A stretch of DNA of 64,000 bases from Ostreococcus lucimarinus (lineage: Eukaryota). The position numbers and the translations under genes are program-made. Position 1 is the stretch's first letter; each line of letters begins with the position of its first letter. The stretch lies in NCBI GenBank assembly GCA_000092065.1, contig CP000589.1; one strand, 5' to 3'. Positions 36,835-40,171 of this stretch are shown piece after piece. A model generated the notes under the pieces. The model had not been told where the DNA came from, made no database searches, and saw only the letters and a list, made by a program, of their open reading frames with translations.

Positions 36835-37317
36835 GTGCGCGGGACGAAGGGCGCGATGTCAGAACAATCATCCAACTACGTCGTCGTGCAAAACGGCATC
36901 GACGCGCCTCGCGCGGCGATGGAACCGGCGAGCGATGACTTTGGTAAGGAAGGTGTTGCCGACGAAAATGGCGCGCAAACGCTCGACGACGACGATTTTG
37001 AGGCGCGAAAGCGCGCGATGCGACGCGATCCTCGATGGGCGTCGAACGCGGCGGCGGAGTACGACGCCAACGTGGGTGCGAAAGGGCGAGAGGTGAATAA
37101 GTTGCTCGTCGAGCTAAAGGAGAGTCAAGACAAAATGGCGCAGAAGATAAGAGACGCGGAGGAGGCGACAGCGTGGGTGGACACCATCGAAGGGGCGAAG
37201 GCGACGATGGATAAATTACCAGAGTATACTTTAAAGGCGCGAGAGGCGAGTCGGAGGATGCAGGAGCTGAGACAACGATTGGAGAAGGTGGAGGCGCGCG
37301 TGAGCAAATTTTCGTAA
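36835..37317 (+). CDS. Small coiled-coil hypothetical protein (~155 aa)
   Basis: Complete ORF of non-repetitive charged helical sequence (VNKLLVELKESQDKMAQKIRDAEEATAWVDTIEGAKATMDKLPEYTLKAREASRRMQELRQRLEKVEARV). Confidence 0.4.
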   Translation: MRGTKGAMSEQSSNYVVVQNGIDAPRAAMEPASDDFGKEGVADENGAQTLDDDDFEARKRAMRRDPRWASNAAAEYDANVGAKGREVNKLLVELKESQDKMAQKIRDAEEATAWVDTIEGAKATMDKLPEYTLKAREASRRMQELRQRLEKVEARVSKFS

Positions 37318-37344: not shown

Positions 37345-38724
37345 TTGCCCTCGGCAGACCACGACGTCGTCGCGATGGTACGGAACGGTGTCGCGATACC
37401 ATTGCGATGGGTCGTCGTCGTTGCGCTCTCGAGCGCTAGACGTGCGCGAGCGCAGGCGTCGGACACGTTCGTCGCCGAGTGCGCGGCGGAACGACTTGAG
37501 GCGCTCGTGTCCGCGTGCGACGCGAACTCTGAAGCTACGTTCGATCGAAACGAGTGCTGCGTGAGACTGCGAGAATTGGACTCGCGCGATTGTTTTTGCA
37601 ACGTCAATCTCGGCGCGGTCGATTTCGAACTTCGCCGAAGGGCGCTGCCGGAGGTGCTTCGCGCGGAGCGCTTGTGCGACGCGAGACTCAAGTTTGGCAA
37701 CGAGTGCGCGCCGTTGCCGCGGTTTCCACCGTTGAACGTGCAGCCACCACCACAGGCACCATCACAGGCACCACAACAACCACCACGGGCACCATCAACG
37801 CCGCCGCCACCGCCCGCGATCGTCTCGCCCGCGATTATCTCTCCGATTCAAGCCACGTGCTCGGTCGACGGCTTGGTGACTTTGATTCAAGCGGGATGCG
37901 CGTCCATCGTAGATTCAACGGATTCTGTACTCAGACAACGCGTTACCTCTGAGTGTTGTAGAGCTCTCGTTAAACTCAACGACGAGCGGTGCTTTTGCTC
38001 GGAAGGAGACATGATTCAAGAACTCCTTCGAGAGTTCCCCGCAAACTTTGGCGGCATGTTCAAGGCTGCGCCGAACGTGTGCGGGTCGACGATCGTCGGT
38101 GGTTGGCAATGTCTCCCGTTCGTCGATAGGACACCACCACCGTCGCCGCCGCCACCGGCGTCACCACCACCGTCGCGAGCGATTCAACGCGCACCGTTGC
38201 CCCCGTTCATAGGTCGCACGTTTGGGTTGGAGCGAGACGTCGTGGAAACGATCACGCGAGACGTGCAAACTCGCGTGTGCGGTATTTCGGCGTATGCCAA
38301 CATTCTAGACGCTGGGTGCGCTCGCTTGCCATTTCTCGATGTTTCAACCAATCGCGCGAAACGGTGTTGCGAGCTCATCGCGCTGATGAACGCGGCTCTT
38401 TGTTTCTGCGAATCGGCGCTCGCCCCGCTCATCGCGAGCACGAGCGCCGTCGTCGAGCCCATGTTCGCCGCCACGACATCGAAGTGTCGTCCTGGTTTTC
38501 AAACTTTTGCGCGTGGACTCACGGAAGATTCATGTCTCGCCGTCGACGCCCCGCTTCCGGCGTCGCCGCCGCCGCCGGCCGCGCCGCCGGCCGCGCCGCC
38601 GCGAAATCCCGACGGTTCCGTCGTCTTCGGCGTGTGGTGGCCTTTCGCTCCGCGATCGCGTCAAAGTGATTCGCCTCCATTGTGGCCCGAGCGTCCTCGC
38701 GTTCCCCCGGTGCTCATCGGTTAG
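37345..38724 (+). CDS. Secreted protein with three tandem 8-cysteine-motif (nsLTP/bifunctional-inhibitor-like) domains joined by Pro-rich linkers
   Basis: Signal peptide (MVRNGVAIPLRWVVVVALSSARRARAQ from ATG 37375). Three repeats of C-Xn-C-Xn-CC-Xn-CXC-Xn-C-Xn-C (for example CSVDG...GCASI...ECCRAL...CFCSEG...CGST...CLP), separated by PPPQAPSQAPQQPP- and PPPSPPPPASPPPS-type linkers, with a Pro-rich C-terminus. Confidence 0.55.
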   Translation: MPSADHDVVAMVRNGVAIPLRWVVVVALSSARRARAQASDTFVAECAAERLEALVSACDANSEATFDRNECCVRLRELDSRDCFCNVNLGAVDFELRRRALPEVLRAERLCDARLKFGNECAPLPRFPPLNVQPPPQAPSQAPQQPPRAPSTPPPPPAIVSPAIISPIQATCSVDGLVTLIQAGCASIVDSTDSVLRQRVTSECCRALVKLNDERCFCSEGDMIQELLREFPANFGGMFKAAPNVCGSTIVGGWQCLPFVDRTPPPSPPPPASPPPSRAIQRAPLPPFIGRTFGLERDVVETITRDVQTRVCGISAYANILDAGCARLPFLDVSTNRAKRCCELIALMNAALCFCESALAPLIASTSAVVEPMFAATTSKCRPGFQTFARGLTEDSCLAVDAPLPASPPPPAAPPAAPPRNPDGSVVFGVWWPFAPRSRQSDSPPLWPERPRVPPVLIG

Positions 38725-38836: not shown

Positions 38837-40171
38837 ATGACGACACGCGCATCGGTGTCGACGTCGTCGTCGACGCTCCGTCGTCTCCCGCGCGCGGTGC
38901 GATGGAACGCGCGCCGGACCGCGAGGATTGGGACGCGCGCGGCGTCGACGCGAAAACCGCCCAACGCGATGACGTCCACGAAGCGCGCGGTGTCCATGCC
39001 CGAGATCCGCGAGCGACGCGCGTTGATACCGTACTTTAACGACGCGCGAGAGCGACCGGTGTACGTCGGGGACGCGGCGCGCGCGAAAATCGCTGCGAGG
39101 AAAGTGGAAGATTTTTTGGCGCTTCCGCGCGAGGAGACGAGCGACGCGCTGCGAGCGCTCCGGGCGATCGTCGAGGACGGATGGGCGACGCACGAGCGCG
39201 AGGGATGCGGACACGCGCGACAGTGGCCAGAGATTTTCGTCGCCGCGAGCGCGTTGATACGCGAACAATTTCCGCAGTTTGGCGTCGCGTCCGAAATTTT
39301 ACCGGGCACGGGGTGGGGGACGGAGAGCGAGGCGATCGATTGGGTGATTCGGCGACCTGAGAAGCACATCATCGCGTCGAAGATACATTTCGCCACGCGT
39401 TTACATCGTGATCCGGATTCATGGACGAATCCAGCGACGACGCAACGGCCGCGCGACGGGTGGCCCGAGTTGTCGATGCCAGACCGCAGTCGCTACCAGT
39501 ACCGCTTCATCAACGTGCACCTCACGACGAGCGCGCTCGATCCTACCGGCAACGCGTGGCAAAGCCCGTTGGTAGTAATGCTTCCACGCGATGGCGGCGC
39601 GCGAGAGTGGGCTTTCGTGAAACGAAAGCTCGAGATGACGAGCGAAGGTGCCAAAGACGAAAACAACTTTGACGACAAGCTCAACATTTTCGATCCCAAA
39701 ACGTGGATCATCCGCGGCAACCGCCTGACGCGAGGCGCGTACACGAAAGAATCGAAAGTCAAAGACGACACCGATACGCGTGGTGCCGATGGAATGACGG
39801 ACGCTGAACGTGACTTCGAGTTCCCCGAAGTCGTTTCGCAAGACGACCAAGAATTCGTGTCAAACGGCGCGATTATGTTTGACTCGTTTGATTGTTGGCA
39901 CGGCGCGGCGAAGTGGCAAGAGGACAAAGCTTTTAAAAAGACGCTCACGGATGTCGACCCCAAGGGTCGACAGCCGTTTCATTCAGCGCGATGTTCGATC
40001 GAAATGCGATTTCGCGTGCGCATAGACATGAACGCCGCCGGCGCTGAGAAACTCCAGTGGGGTCCTTTCACTTCGGCGGTGCGAGACGGAAAATTCCTCG
40101 ACGAACCGCTTCGAGATTCCGAGGCGCGATACGATCTCGCTCGAGGGCGTATCGTTCGTGCGACGCGTTAG
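38837..40171 (+). CDS. Hypothetical protein (444 aa), organelle-targeted; no recognised domain
   Basis: ATG at 38837 (MTTRASVSTSSSTLRRL). Well-balanced, non-repetitive composition with conserved-looking aromatic positions (WPEIFVAASALIREQFPQFG, YQYRFINVHLTTSALDPTGNAWQSPLVVMLPRDGG, FDCWHGAAKWQEDKAF). Confidence 0.45.
   Translation: MTTRASVSTSSSTLRRLPRAVRWNARRTARIGTRAASTRKPPNAMTSTKRAVSMPEIRERRALIPYFNDARERPVYVGDAARAKIAARKVEDFLALPREETSDALRALRAIVEDGWATHEREGCGHARQWPEIFVAASALIREQFPQFGVASEILPGTGWGTESEAIDWVIRRPEKHIIASKIHFATRLHRDPDSWTNPATTQRPRDGWPELSMPDRSRYQYRFINVHLTTSALDPTGNAWQSPLVVMLPRDGGAREWAFVKRKLEMTSEGAKDENNFDDKLNIFDPKTWIIRGNRLTRGAYTKESKVKDDTDTRGADGMTDAERDFEFPEVVSQDDQEFVSNGAIMFDSFDCWHGAAKWQEDKAFKKTLTDVDPKGRQPFHSARCSIEMRFRVRIDMNAAGAEKLQWGPFTSAVRDGKFLDEPLRDSEARYDLARGRIVRATR

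What the first reader, a model, noticed from the sequence alone, without database searches (positions are those of the whole stretch)
37345..38724. Secreted protein with three tandem nsLTP-like 8-cysteine-motif domains and proline-rich linkers in a prasinophyte alga
The protein has a signal peptide, then three ~90-aa domains each with the spacing C...C...CC...CXC...C...C, as in the plant bifunctional-inhibitor/lipid-transfer/seed-storage 8CM fold. The domains are separated by PPPQAPSQAPQQPP-type linkers, and the C-terminus is Pro-rich. This hybrid-proline-rich-protein/LTP architecture is regarded as a land-plant, cell-wall-associated innovation. A triple-domain version in a wall-less picoalga is unexpected. 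It could be an extracellular lipid-binding or adhesion protein, or evidence that the 8CM fold is older than thought.
Basis: partly seen in the sequence, partly recalled or inferred. Interest (0 to 1): 0.65.

Follow-up and report, generated by a model that had tools for sequence, protein, structure and literature searches.

The report
Triple LTP-like cysteine-motif protein in Ostreococcus
This is a real gene of the marine picoalga Ostreococcus lucimarinus for a probably secreted protein with three lipid-transfer-protein-like eight-cysteine modules joined by proline-rich spacers, but its O. tauri counterpart was already published in 2023 as a putative algal lipid transfer protein, so it extends a known family.

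Summary
Window 37375-38724 (+) is an intron-less 449-aa ORF. It has an N-terminal signal-like peptide, three 8-cysteine motifs (C-X11-12-C-X12-18-CC-X10-CFC-X25-27-C-X9-15-C), proline-rich linkers with SPPPP motifs and a Pro-rich tail. All 24 Cys are invariant in 15 orthologues.

The window is Ostreococcus lucimarinus CCE9901. The gene is the syntenic orthologue of O. tauri CAL55586.1, whose computed mature length, mass and pI match "OtLTP1" of Huang et al. 2023 exactly. The Micromonas commoda orthologue already carries the "bifunctional inhibitor/LTP/seed storage" name in UniRef. Multi-8CM LTPs, including a three-motif one, are already known in bryophytes.

Sequence support for membership of the LTP/prolamin superfamily is consistent but marginal:
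- Pfam PF00234 scores 23.2 bits against a cutoff of 21.7.
- A family profile hits only DIR1 (E=0.005) and 2S albumins in the PDB.
- A Coleochaete 3x8CM protein bridges to the Pfam LTP families.

Verdict: a new member of a known kind. The added points are the conserved triple architecture across the three Mamiellales-type lineages sampled and orthologues in Micromonas and a Bathycoccus-like lineage. Function is inferred only.

The parts
37375..38724 (+). Single-exon coding sequence (449 codons plus stop) of the triple-8CM protein. The true start is most likely the ATG at 37375, not the TTG at 37345.
   Evidence: ORF list, translation, the same gene called on an independent assembly, and syntenic orthologues.
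37375..37452 (+). Putative signal peptide (aa 1-26, MVRNGVAIPLRWVVVVALSSARRARA), with cleavage inferred before Gln27.
   Evidence: Hydrophobic core and A-x-A site read from the sequence. A26-Q27 is invariant in 15 homologues. Huang et al. give a 19-aa signal peptide for the O. tauri orthologue. No predictor was run.
37480..37707 (+). 8CM module 1 (aa 36-111): C-X11-C-X12-CC-X10-CFC-X25-C-X9-C. Acidic, pI 4.7.
   Evidence: Regex. AlphaFold helices 38-47, 58-70, 76-79 and 84-100, with block-mean pLDDT about 80-94. Weak LTP_2 match at aa 17-80.
37708..37857 (+). Proline-rich linker 1 (aa 112-161, 38% Pro; PPPQAPSQAPQQPPRAPSTPPPPP).
   Evidence: Composition. Residues 119-138 have pLDDT below 50, so are predicted disordered.
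37858..38112 (+). 8CM module 2 (aa 162-246): C-X12-C-X18-CC-X10-CFC-X27-C-X9-C, with the conserved FPANF and GGWQC motifs.
   Evidence: Regex. Best Pfam stretch for PF00234 and Hydrophob_seed. Stand-alone AlphaFold model with pLDDT 89.5 and pTM 0.79.
38113..38277 (+). Linker 2 (aa 247-301): extensin-like TPPPSPPPPASPPPS, followed by the Ostreococcus-conserved IQRAPLPPFIGRTFGL segment.
   Evidence: Composition and motifs, alignment, low pLDDT over most of the Pro-rich part.
38278..38535 (+). 8CM module 3 (aa 302-387): C-X12-C-X15-CC-X10-CFC-X25-C-X15-C. The most hydrophobic module (GRAVY 0.48).
   Evidence: Regex, AlphaFold helices, composition.
38536..38721 (+). Pro-rich C-terminal region (aa 388-449, 31% Pro) with SPPPP, a WWPF motif and the conserved terminal LWPERPRVPPVLIG. 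There is no hydrophobic GPI-type tail.
   Evidence: Composition and hydropathy. The tail motif is shared with Micromonas-type homologues.

Best explanation
Window 37375-38724 is an intron-less gene of Ostreococcus lucimarinus. It encodes a roughly 45-kDa acidic protein that most likely enters the secretory pathway.

The protein is modular. Three paralogous, disulfide-rich, all-helical modules carry the eight-cysteine motif of the LTP/2S-albumin/prolamin superfamily, of the DIR1/LTP2-like kind with a buried hydrophobic residue in C-F-C. They are strung on disordered proline-rich spacers whose Ser/Thr-Pro3-5 motifs resemble extensin-type hydroxyproline-glycosylation sites.

It is the orthologue of O. 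tauri 'OtLTP1'. The three-module layout predates the Ostreococcus/Micromonas split. A Bathycoccus-like lineage keeps only modules 2 and 3.

The most likely working model is inferred, not shown. Each module would be a compact four-disulfide helical box that binds a hydrophobic ligand such as a fatty acid or lipid. The glycosylated Pro-rich rods would space three such boxes at or beyond the cell surface. That would make an extracellular lipid-binding or surface-matrix protein rather than a small diffusible carrier.

Shown here: the gene, its architecture, its conservation, its orthology and its weak but consistent sequence relationship to the superfamily. Inferred: secretion, disulfides, glycosylation, lipid binding and biological role.
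For: - Gene reality and constraint: all 24 Cys and the three CFC Phe are invariant in 15 homologues of 34-63% identity. Only three 8CM matches occur in the six-frame translation of the window, all in this ORF.
- Organism and orthology: neighbouring proteins are identical to O. lucimarinus CCE9901 entries. The gene order Oxa1-PolX-...-Snapin-[this gene]-orphan-FKBP-TAF1 is the same on O. tauri chromosome 9. Snapin upstream is kept in Micromonas-like and Bathycoccus-like contigs.
- Identity with OtLTP1: the O. tauri orthologue with a 19-aa signal peptide removed is 394 aa, 42.03 kDa and pI 4.89. These are the values given for OtLTP1.
- Internal triplication: the module HMMs cross-hit each other at about 1e-4 to 1e-13, and modules are one-to-one orthologous in Micromonas.
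- Superfamily link from Pfam: PF00234 scores 23.2 bits against a cutoff of 21.7. It matches 13 of 15 homologues at E<0.01. LTP_2 reaches 2.7e-9 in one homologue. No unrelated family is hit.
- Superfamily link from profiles: the family profile A5 against PDB sequences returns only DIR1 (E=0.0053) and four 2S albumins. hhalign of A5 against a DIR1-family alignment gives P=5.6e-4.
- Bridging protein: a Coleochaete scutata 3x8CM protein is hit by the Mamiellales profile at 1.5e-15. It scores 42.7 bits on PF00234 and 37 bits on LTP_2.
- Existing annotation: the M. commoda orthologue carries the superfamily name in UniRef.
- Structure prediction: three helical modules have block-mean pLDDT about 80-94, and most of the Pro-rich linker stretches fall below 50. 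Module 2 alone has pLDDT 89.5 with 4-5 helices. Its Cys positions match the LTP layout: C1/C2 flank H1, CC lies in H2, CXC sits at the H2/H3 junction, C7 ends the last helix and C8 is in the tail.
- Analogy: Chlamydomonas CrLTP2 of the algal lineage bound long-chain fatty acids in vitro (PMC9832785 abstract).
- Glycosylation plausibility: extensin arabinosyltransferase clades RRA and XEG113 are reported in all analysed algal genomes, prasinophytes included (PMC3797821).
Against: - The Mamiellales-only profile is not significantly similar to DIR1-family profiles (Prob 0.8-1.6%).
- The profile search of 1.84 billion representatives found only 52 proteins and did not pull in land-plant LTPs.
- Scores between small Cys-rich domains are driven largely by the cysteines, so convergence is not excluded.
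- The protein is large (45 kDa) and acidic (pI 5.4), unlike classical nsLTPs.
- No expression, localisation or binding data exist for this gene. A literature search on the O. tauri identifiers found nothing.
Confidence: 0.6

Rival explanations
1. The modules are extracellular-matrix or adhesion building blocks rather than lipid carriers. On this view the protein is a chimeric hydroxyproline-rich glycoprotein. It would be used in a surface coat, or in the wall of a cryptic zygote or resting stage of these supposedly naked algae. The 8CM boxes would serve as stable protein-protein or protein-glycan contact knobs.
For: - Extensin-like SPPPP/TPPPPP motifs sit in every spacer.
- The same module occurs 4-5 times in giant metagenomic proteins together with an Ig-like surface domain and a PAN domain, which are typical adhesion or ECM modules.
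- Micromonas-type orthologues add a collagen-like GPxGPPGPPG stretch.
- Chlamydomonas CrLTPs are expressed specifically in late zygotes (PMC9832785).
- Ulvskov et al. note that the wall-less status of prasinophytes deserves closer study.
- A conserved non-hydrophobic C-terminal motif could be an anchoring or cross-linking site.
Against: There is no direct evidence for a wall or zygote stage here. There are no Tyr cross-link motifs (YxY) in the spacers, as read from the sequence. The idea is compatible with lipid binding rather than exclusive of it. No expression data are available.
Confidence: 0.3
2. The modules are a convergent cysteine-rich helical domain that merely shares the C...C...CC...CXC...C...C spacing with plant 8CM proteins. 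On this view they do not adopt the LTP fold or bind lipid.
For: - The Mamiellales-only profile against DIR1 profiles is not significant.
- Pfam scores are marginal for single modules, none of which reaches the cutoff.
- Land-plant LTPs are not retrieved in the exhaustive profile search.
Against: - Every weak database hit belongs to the same superfamily and to nothing else.
- The whole-protein PF00234 score passes the curated cutoff in the window protein and more clearly in relatives: 32.7 bits in M. commoda and 42.7 bits in Coleochaete.
- DIR1 becomes the top PDB hit at E=0.005 once the profile is broadened.
- The secondary-structure and Cys layout matches LTP2/DIR1.
- The hydrophobic X in CXC is as in DIR1 and LTP2 (PMC5052319).
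Confidence: 0.15
3. It is a secreted defence protein acting as a protease or amylase inhibitor or as an antimicrobial agent, like cereal bifunctional inhibitors and some nsLTPs. Three inhibitor heads would be displayed in tandem.
For: The best Pfam match is PF00234 'protease inhibitor/seed storage/LTP family'. One distant relative also has a sub-threshold Pacifastin inhibitor match. CrLTP2 is protease-resistant.
Against: PF00234 is a broad model covering LTPs too. No reactive-site loop conservation was identified. The protein is acidic, whereas antimicrobial LTPs are typically basic. No supporting context was found.
Confidence: 0.07
4. The ORF is not a real gene but a chance open frame in GC-rich DNA.
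For: Codon-position GC (0.64/0.57/0.64) does not single out the frame as it does for the neighbouring genes. No identical product is on record from the NCBI annotation of O. lucimarinus.
Against: Syntenic orthologues exist in four Mamiellales-type lineages, with all 24 Cys invariant at 34-63% identity and indels confined to linkers. The gene is annotated in O. tauri and M. commoda. The flat codon-position GC is explained by the many CCN proline codons.
Confidence: 0.02

Closest known systems
OtLTP1 of Ostreococcus tauri, in the algal nsLTP lineage of Huang et al. 2023 (BMC Plant Biol 23:21, PMC9832785)
   Same: It is the direct syntenic orthologue, with 52% identity over 97% of the query, the same gene neighbourhood, no intron, a signal peptide, three 8CMs, and an acidic mature protein of more than 40 kDa.
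   Different: It comes from a different species, and the O. lucimarinus gene has no identical product on record in NCBI. The paper treats OtLTP1 as one nsLTP and does not mention that it has three 8CMs. Its text holds no 'tandem', 'three 8CM' or 'multiple 8CM'. It reports zero nsLTPs in Micromonas pusilla and Bathycoccus, whereas orthologues exist in M. commoda and in Micromonas-like and Bathycoccus-like contigs.
DIR1 / LTPd-LTP2-type land-plant lipid transfer proteins (Pfam LTP_2 PF14368; PDB 2RKN)
   Same: Both have the eight-cysteine motif with similar spacing, a hydrophobic residue in CXC (Leu in DIR1, Phe here), a signal peptide and 4-5 helices. DIR1 is the best PDB sequence match of the family profile (E=0.0053). 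The DIR1 description is from PMC5052319.
   Different: DIR1 is a single module of about 7-8 kDa. Profile-profile similarity is weak (Prob 1.6-30%). No structural match was recovered. CC-X10-CXC is invariant here, against X9 in DIR1.
Multi-8CM LTPs of bryophytes and angiosperms (PpLTPg7 with three 8CMs, MpLTPg2, Oryza barthii A0A0D3HQM8 with four), as summarised in PMC12480973
   Same: Several 8CM modules occur in one secreted polypeptide.
   Different: The bryophyte ones are LTPg-type, which are GPI-anchored. The window protein has no hydrophobic C-terminal signal. There is no evidence of shared ancestry of the triplication. The Coleochaete three-module protein shows no one-to-one correspondence with modules 1-3.
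Hybrid proline-rich proteins (HyPRPs; Pfam Hydrophob_seed PF14547)
   Same: They combine Pro-rich sequence with an 8CM domain behind a signal peptide. In AtCWLP the Pro-rich part is Hyp-glycosylated and contacts the wall (abstract of bioRxiv 10.1101/2022.10.20.512913).
   Different: HyPRPs have one N-terminal Pro-rich domain followed by one C-terminal 8CM. Here an 8CM comes first and Pro-rich segments alternate with three modules. Hydrophob_seed scores 15 bits against a cutoff of 23.4.
2S albumins / conglutins (Ara h 6, SFA-8)
   Same: They belong to the same superfamily motif. They are the best PDB sequence hits of the Mamiellales-only profile and the second to fifth hits of the broadened profile.
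   Different: All E-values are at or above 0.037. They are seed storage proteins of angiosperms with longer CXC-C7 spacing and no Pro-rich spacers.

Membership tests
Prolamin / bifunctional inhibitor-LTP-seed storage superfamily (Pfam PF00234, PF14368, PF14547) | Eight-cysteine motif C-Xn-C-Xn-CC-Xn-CXC-Xn-C-Xn-C | tested here: met
   Three complete motifs at aa 36-111, 162-246 and 302-387. They are invariant in 15 homologues and absent elsewhere in the window.
Prolamin / bifunctional inhibitor-LTP-seed storage superfamily (Pfam PF00234, PF14368, PF14547) | Score above the curated Pfam gathering threshold | tested here: met
   PF00234 scores 23.2 bits against 21.7 for the whole protein, so it is marginal. 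Single modules stay below the cutoff. Relatives pass more clearly: M. commoda 32.7 bits and Coleochaete 42.7 bits. LTP_2 and Hydrophob_seed are below cutoff for the window protein.
Prolamin / bifunctional inhibitor-LTP-seed storage superfamily (Pfam PF00234, PF14368, PF14547) | Four- to five-helix right-handed superhelix fold superposable on solved LTP or 2S albumin structures | tested here: inconclusive
Prolamin / bifunctional inhibitor-LTP-seed storage superfamily (Pfam PF00234, PF14368, PF14547) | Four conserved disulfide bridges | not testable with these tools
The only hint is that two modules of a distant relative (P0151) have lost C5 together with one of C1/C2 while keeping C8. That fits the LTP2/DIR1 pairing C1-C5 rather than the LTP1 pairing C5-C8. 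This is weak.
Non-specific lipid transfer proteins (nsLTP sensu Salminen et al. 2016, PMC5052319) | Internal hydrophobic cavity that binds lipids | not testable with these tools
   There is only indirect support. Modules 2 and 3 are hydrophobic (GRAVY 0.22 and 0.48). CrLTP2 of the algal lineage binds fatty acids.
Non-specific lipid transfer proteins (nsLTP sensu Salminen et al. 2016, PMC5052319) | Small size (usually below 10 kDa), as stated in the review; the usually basic pI (8-12) is quoted from Huang et al. 2023 | tested here: not met
   The mature protein is about 45 kDa with pI 5.4. Huang et al. note that algal candidates are larger and more acidic.
Non-specific lipid transfer proteins (nsLTP sensu Salminen et al. 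2016, PMC5052319) | N-terminal secretory signal peptide | tested here: inconclusive
   A hydrophobic core plus an A-x-A|Q site is conserved in all homologues. A 19-aa signal peptide is reported for the orthologue. No predictor was available here.
Algal nsLTP lineage (Huang et al. 2023) | Orthology to a listed member (OtLTP1) | tested here: met
   There is 52% identity over 97% of the query, identical synteny, and an exact match of mature length, mass and pI of the O. tauri protein to the OtLTP1 table entry. The accession printed in the paper (OUS48719.1) belongs to the same 90% cluster but is recorded as 613 aa.
Hybrid proline-rich proteins (HyPRP) | One N-terminal Pro-rich domain followed by one C-terminal 8CM domain (Hydrophob_seed) | tested here: not met
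   The architecture is SP-8CM-PRR-8CM-PRR-8CM-PRR. PF14547 scores 15 bits against a cutoff of 23.4.
GPI-anchored LTPg | C-terminal hydrophobic GPI-attachment signal | tested here: not met
   The C-terminus ...RPRVPPVLIG is not hydrophobic, and the top hydropathy windows lie inside module 3. By contrast, the Coleochaete relative P0152 ends in a hydrophobic tail.

The most novel reading that the evidence does not exclude
The eight-cysteine module may be an ancient, reusable extracellular building block of green algae, not merely a stray LTP homologue. It occurs in tandem on Pro-rich rods in the Mamiellales-type lineages sampled. It occurs six times in a 1380-aa protein. It occurs with Ig-like and PAN domains in 1.6-2.3-kaa proteins, and three times with a GPI-like tail in the streptophyte alga Coleochaete. 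If so, the ancestral viridiplant 'LTP' was a multi-module, surface-tethered glycoprotein. The small soluble land-plant nsLTPs would be a later reduction. In addition, 'naked' picoalgae such as Ostreococcus would deploy a protein coat or zygote/cyst wall that has not been seen.
Probability: 0.15. Interest if true: 0.6.

Novelty: new member of a known kind. Interest (0 to 1): 0.3.

Why it matters
As a bare finding it is modest. The O. tauri orthologue is already in the literature as a putative algal nsLTP. The Micromonas commoda orthologue already carries the superfamily annotation. Multi-8CM LTPs are already known.

The follow-up adds four points:
1. The published algal 'nsLTP' of Ostreococcus is really a three-module protein with extensin-like spacers. 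This explains its anomalous 42-50 kDa size.
2. The architecture and its position next to Snapin are conserved across the Mamiellales-type lineages sampled. This includes Micromonas and a Bathycoccus-like lineage, for which the survey reported none.
3. A Coleochaete three-module protein links the algal modules to bona fide Pfam LTP families.
4. Structure prediction does not yet confirm the LTP fold, so claims about the age of the fold rest on marginal sequence statistics.

If the modules do bind lipid, the protein would be a tractable entry point to ask what LTP-like proteins did before cuticles and walls existed.

Tried and rejected
- Foldseek of the full-length AlphaFold model against the PDB gave only armadillo/HEAT-type global matches with TM about 0.1. 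This is uninformative for a beads-on-a-string protein.
- The afdb50 library, which would have held predicted plant and algal LTPs, was not available.
- phmmer of single relatives (P0016, P0152) against PDB sequences found nothing relevant.
- hhalign of the Mamiellales-only module alignment against a narrow Brassicaceae DIR1 alignment, and then a broad angiosperm one, was not significant. It became suggestive only with the broadened family profile.
- A literature search on the O. tauri gene and protein identifiers found no paper, so no expression data were obtained.
- An attempt to read disulfide partners from coupled cysteine losses across 111 module instances was mostly defeated by partial local alignments. 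Only one protein was informative.
- Codon-position GC does not discriminate the reading frame because of the Pro codons. dN/dS was not attempted because orthologues are too divergent (at most 60% aa identity) or nearly identical.
- HyPRP, GPI-anchored LTPg and CFEM-type domains were considered as classifications. HyPRP and LTPg were rejected on architecture and on the missing hydrophobic tail. CFEM was rejected from memory because it lacks the CC doublet.
Full report
1. What is there

The window has an uninterrupted ORF at 37345-38724 on the + strand. The listed start is only the first TTG after a stop. The first ATG is at 37375 and gives a 449-aa protein. That is exactly the gene called on an independent public assembly.

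The protein begins MVRNGVAIPLRWVVVVALSSARRARA|QASDTF. A regular expression for the eight-cysteine motif (8CM) finds three matches, at aa 36-111, 162-246 and 302-387. The spacings are 11/12/10/1/25/9, 12/18/10/1/27/9 and 12/15/10/1/25/15, and the residue between C5 and C6 is always Phe. The same expression run on the six-frame translation of the whole 64 kb matches nowhere else.

The segments between the modules are 38% and 25% proline, and the last 62 residues are 31% proline. They contain TPPPPP, TPPP, SPPPP, SPPP and SPPPP motifs. There are no N-glycosylation sequons and no hydrophobic C-terminal tail.

2. Whose gene it is and whether it is real

Several neighbouring ORFs are identical to annotated proteins of Ostreococcus lucimarinus CCE9901: FKBP XP_001419866.1 and the MCM10 homologue XP_001419658.1, on a 670,853-bp record. 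So the window comes from that prasinophyte.

The 449-aa product has no identical entry from the NCBI annotation. It appears only in Logan, ENA and JGI assemblies. It is therefore either unannotated or modelled differently in the reference genome.

Homologues of 45-60% identity and 413-447 aa exist, including O. tauri CAL55586.1/XP_003081417.1. A second group of 564-646 aa is Ala/Pro-rich and Micromonas-like. In an alignment of 15 full-length sequences, all 24 cysteines, the three CFC phenylalanines and the Ala-Gln at the putative signal cleavage site are invariant. Indels are confined to the linkers.

Synteny supports orthology:
- O. tauri chromosome 9 has the same gene order: Oxa1, PolX..., Snapin, this gene, a roughly 410-440-aa orphan, FKBP, TAF1.
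- A Micromonas-like Tara contig keeps Snapin upstream (separated from the gene by an opposite-strand LRR gene), the orphan immediately downstream and FKBP further downstream.
- A 47.8% GC, Bathycoccus-like contig keeps Snapin immediately upstream.

Codon-position GC does not single out the frame. This is expected for a Pro-rich protein, and the conservation evidence is decisive. The gene is real and under purifying selection.

3. Anatomy and history of the modules

HMMs built from each module across species hit the other two modules at about 1e-4 to 1e-13. The three modules are therefore paralogues.

In the Micromonas commoda-type protein, modules 1, 2 and 3 each score best against the corresponding Ostreococcus module. 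The triplication therefore predates the split of these genera. The Bathycoccus-like protein has only modules 2 and 3.

CC-X10-CXC is invariant across the regex-defined modules examined, with one X11 exception.

AlphaFold2 on the 15-sequence alignment gives three helical domains with block-mean pLDDT about 80-94, and most of the Pro-rich linker stretches fall below 50. Module 2 modelled alone with 26 module sequences gives pLDDT 89.5 and pTM 0.79. Its helices are at 8-16, 19-23, 29-47, 56-64 and 66-79, followed by a short C-terminal hairpin.

Relative to these helices, C1 and C2 flank the first helix, CC lies in the long second helix, and CFC sits at the junction to the third. C7 ends the last helix and C8 lies in the tail. 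This is the layout described for LTP2 and DIR1 (PMC5052319).

4. Is it an LTP/prolamin-superfamily domain?

Sequence evidence is consistent but marginal.
- For the window protein, Pfam Tryp_alpha_amyl (PF00234) scores 23.2 bits against a cutoff of 21.7. LTP_2 and Hydrophob_seed are below cutoff.
- Thirteen of 15 homologues hit PF00234 at E<0.01, and one hits LTP_2 at 2.7e-9.
- Single modules hit only these three families. None reaches the cutoff alone.
- A profile of the Mamiellales modules against all PDB sequences gives 2S albumins (E=0.037-3.4) as eight of its nine hits, including the top one; the other hit is SKP2 at E=2.6.
- The exhaustive profile search of 1.84 billion representatives returns only 52 proteins and not the mass of land-plant LTPs.
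- hhalign against DIR1-family alignments is insignificant (Prob 0.8% and 1.6%).

Two results strengthen the link.
- One of the 52 hits (E=1.5e-15) is a Coleochaete scutata transcript product with three 8CMs and a hydrophobic C-terminal tail. It scores 42.7 bits on PF00234 and 37 bits on LTP_2, so it bridges the algal modules to bona fide members.
- A broadened module profile of 36 sequences, run against PDB sequences, returns only five hits at E<=10, and all belong to the superfamily. DIR1 (2RKN) is first at E=0.0053. hhalign to the DIR1 family rises to Prob 30%, P=5.6e-4.

The M. commoda orthologue XP_002505095.1 is already named 'Bifunctional inhibitor/plant lipid transfer protein/seed storage helical domain-containing protein' in UniRef.

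5. What is already known

Huang et al. 2023 (PMC9832785) searched 35 algal genomes with a relaxed 8CM pattern. They reported 29 putative nsLTPs in green algae, two of them in O. tauri.

Their Supplementary Table 1 lists OtLTP1 with no intron, a 19-aa signal peptide, and a mature protein of 394 aa, 42.03 kDa and pI 4.89. The O. tauri orthologue of the window protein, minus 19 residues, computes to exactly 394 aa, 42.03 kDa and pI 4.89. The family is therefore already published as an algal nsLTP.

The paper does not mention that the protein has three 8CMs. Its text holds no 'tandem', 'three 8CM' or 'multiple 8CM'. It reports none in Micromonas pusilla or Bathycoccus prasinos, whereas orthologues exist in M. 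commoda and in Micromonas-like and Bathycoccus-like contigs.

Multi-8CM LTPs are also known. Edstam et al. 2011 found bryophyte LTPs with two 8CMs and one (PpLTPg7) with three. A 2025 review lists 35 proteins with two, two with three and one with four (PMC12480973).

6. How it most likely works

Shown:
- It is a conserved modular protein with a signal-like N-terminus.
- It has three paralogous Cys-locked helical modules.
- It has disordered Pro-rich spacers with extensin-type Ser/Thr-Pro3-5 motifs.
- It has a conserved non-hydrophobic C-terminal motif.

Inferred:
- It enters the secretory pathway.
- Each module forms four disulfides, probably with the LTP2/DIR1 pairing given the buried-type Phe in CXC. 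One distant relative has lost C5 together with one of C1/C2 but not C8.
- Each module binds a hydrophobic ligand, as CrLTP2 does.
- The spacers are hydroxylated and arabinosylated. The candidate extensin arabinosyltransferase clades are reported in all analysed algal genomes, prasinophytes included (PMC3797821).

The result would be a rod-like surface or extracellular protein displaying three lipid-binding boxes.

The main rival is not exclusive of this model. On that view the modules are matrix or adhesion knobs. It is supported by giant metagenomic proteins that combine 4-5 copies of the module with an Ig-like surface domain and a PAN domain. It is also supported by the collagen-like stretch in Micromonas-type orthologues and by the zygote-specific expression of the Chlamydomonas LTPs.

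Convergence without the LTP fold (about 15%) and an inhibitor or antimicrobial role (below 10%) remain possible.

7. Verdict

Novelty is 'new member of a known kind'. Interest is about 0.3. The useful increments are:
- the recognition that OtLTP1-type proteins are triple-module proteins;
- their conservation and synteny across the Mamiellales-type lineages sampled;
- the Coleochaete bridge to bona fide Pfam LTP families;
- the caution that the fold is still unverified.

Noticed in passing
window 38837-40171 (+): Immediately downstream, 112 bp after the stop and on the same strand, lies a 444-aa orphan gene with a Ser/Thr/Arg-rich N-terminus that looks like a transit peptide. It has no Pfam match. 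It is 52% identical to the gene in the same position on the Micromonas-like contig (L003 8163-9587). A gene of similar size sits in that position in O. tauri.
   Followed up: partly
window 36856-37317 (+); L002, L003, L005: A Snapin/Pallidin-domain gene (153 aa) ends 58 bp upstream of the 8CM gene's ATG. Snapin lies directly upstream on the same strand in O. lucimarinus, O. tauri and the Bathycoccus-like contig; in the Micromonas-like contigs an opposite-strand LRR gene lies between. This is unusually stable microsynteny.
   Followed up: partly
window 38680-38721 (aa 436-449); P0139, P0153, P0016 C-termini: A C-terminal tail motif, roughly [FW]-P-x-[RK]-P-[RK]-x-P-P-[AG]-L, is conserved between Ostreococcus (LWPERPRVPPVLIG) and Micromonas-type orthologues (FPSRPRLPPALGM, SWKPRAPPGLESVGR). 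It is not a GPI-type hydrophobic signal and its role is unknown.
   Followed up: no
P0155 (1586 aa), P0162 (2288 aa), P0173 (1694 aa), P0137 (1380 aa), from metagenomes: Giant proteins carry 4-6 copies of the same 8CM-like module. P0155 and P0173 add a Bact_surface_Ig-like domain at the N-terminus, and P0173 also has a PAN_4 domain. This suggests the module is a general extracellular building block in marine green algae.
   Followed up: partly
P0152 (EukProt EP00245_Coleochaete_scutata_P004175): A streptophyte-alga transcript encodes a 353-aa protein with three 8CMs, many N-x-S/T sequons and a hydrophobic C-terminal tail, so it resembles a GPI-anchored LTPg. It passes the Pfam LTP cutoffs clearly. 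Its modules show no one-to-one correspondence with Mamiellales modules 1-3.
   Followed up: partly
P0035 (OUS48719.1) versus P0007 (CAL55586.1): The accession printed for OtLTP1 in Huang et al. (OUS48719.1) is recorded here as a 613-aa model. The table values (19 + 394 aa, 42.03 kDa, pI 4.89) fit the 413-aa model CAL55586.1/XP_003081417.1. This is probably a longer or fused gene model in the second O. tauri assembly.
   Followed up: no
window 37345-38724, product versus NCBI annotation: No identical product from the NCBI annotation of O. lucimarinus CCE9901 is on record, although the flanking genes are. The gene may be missing or mis-modelled in the reference annotation.
   Followed up: partly
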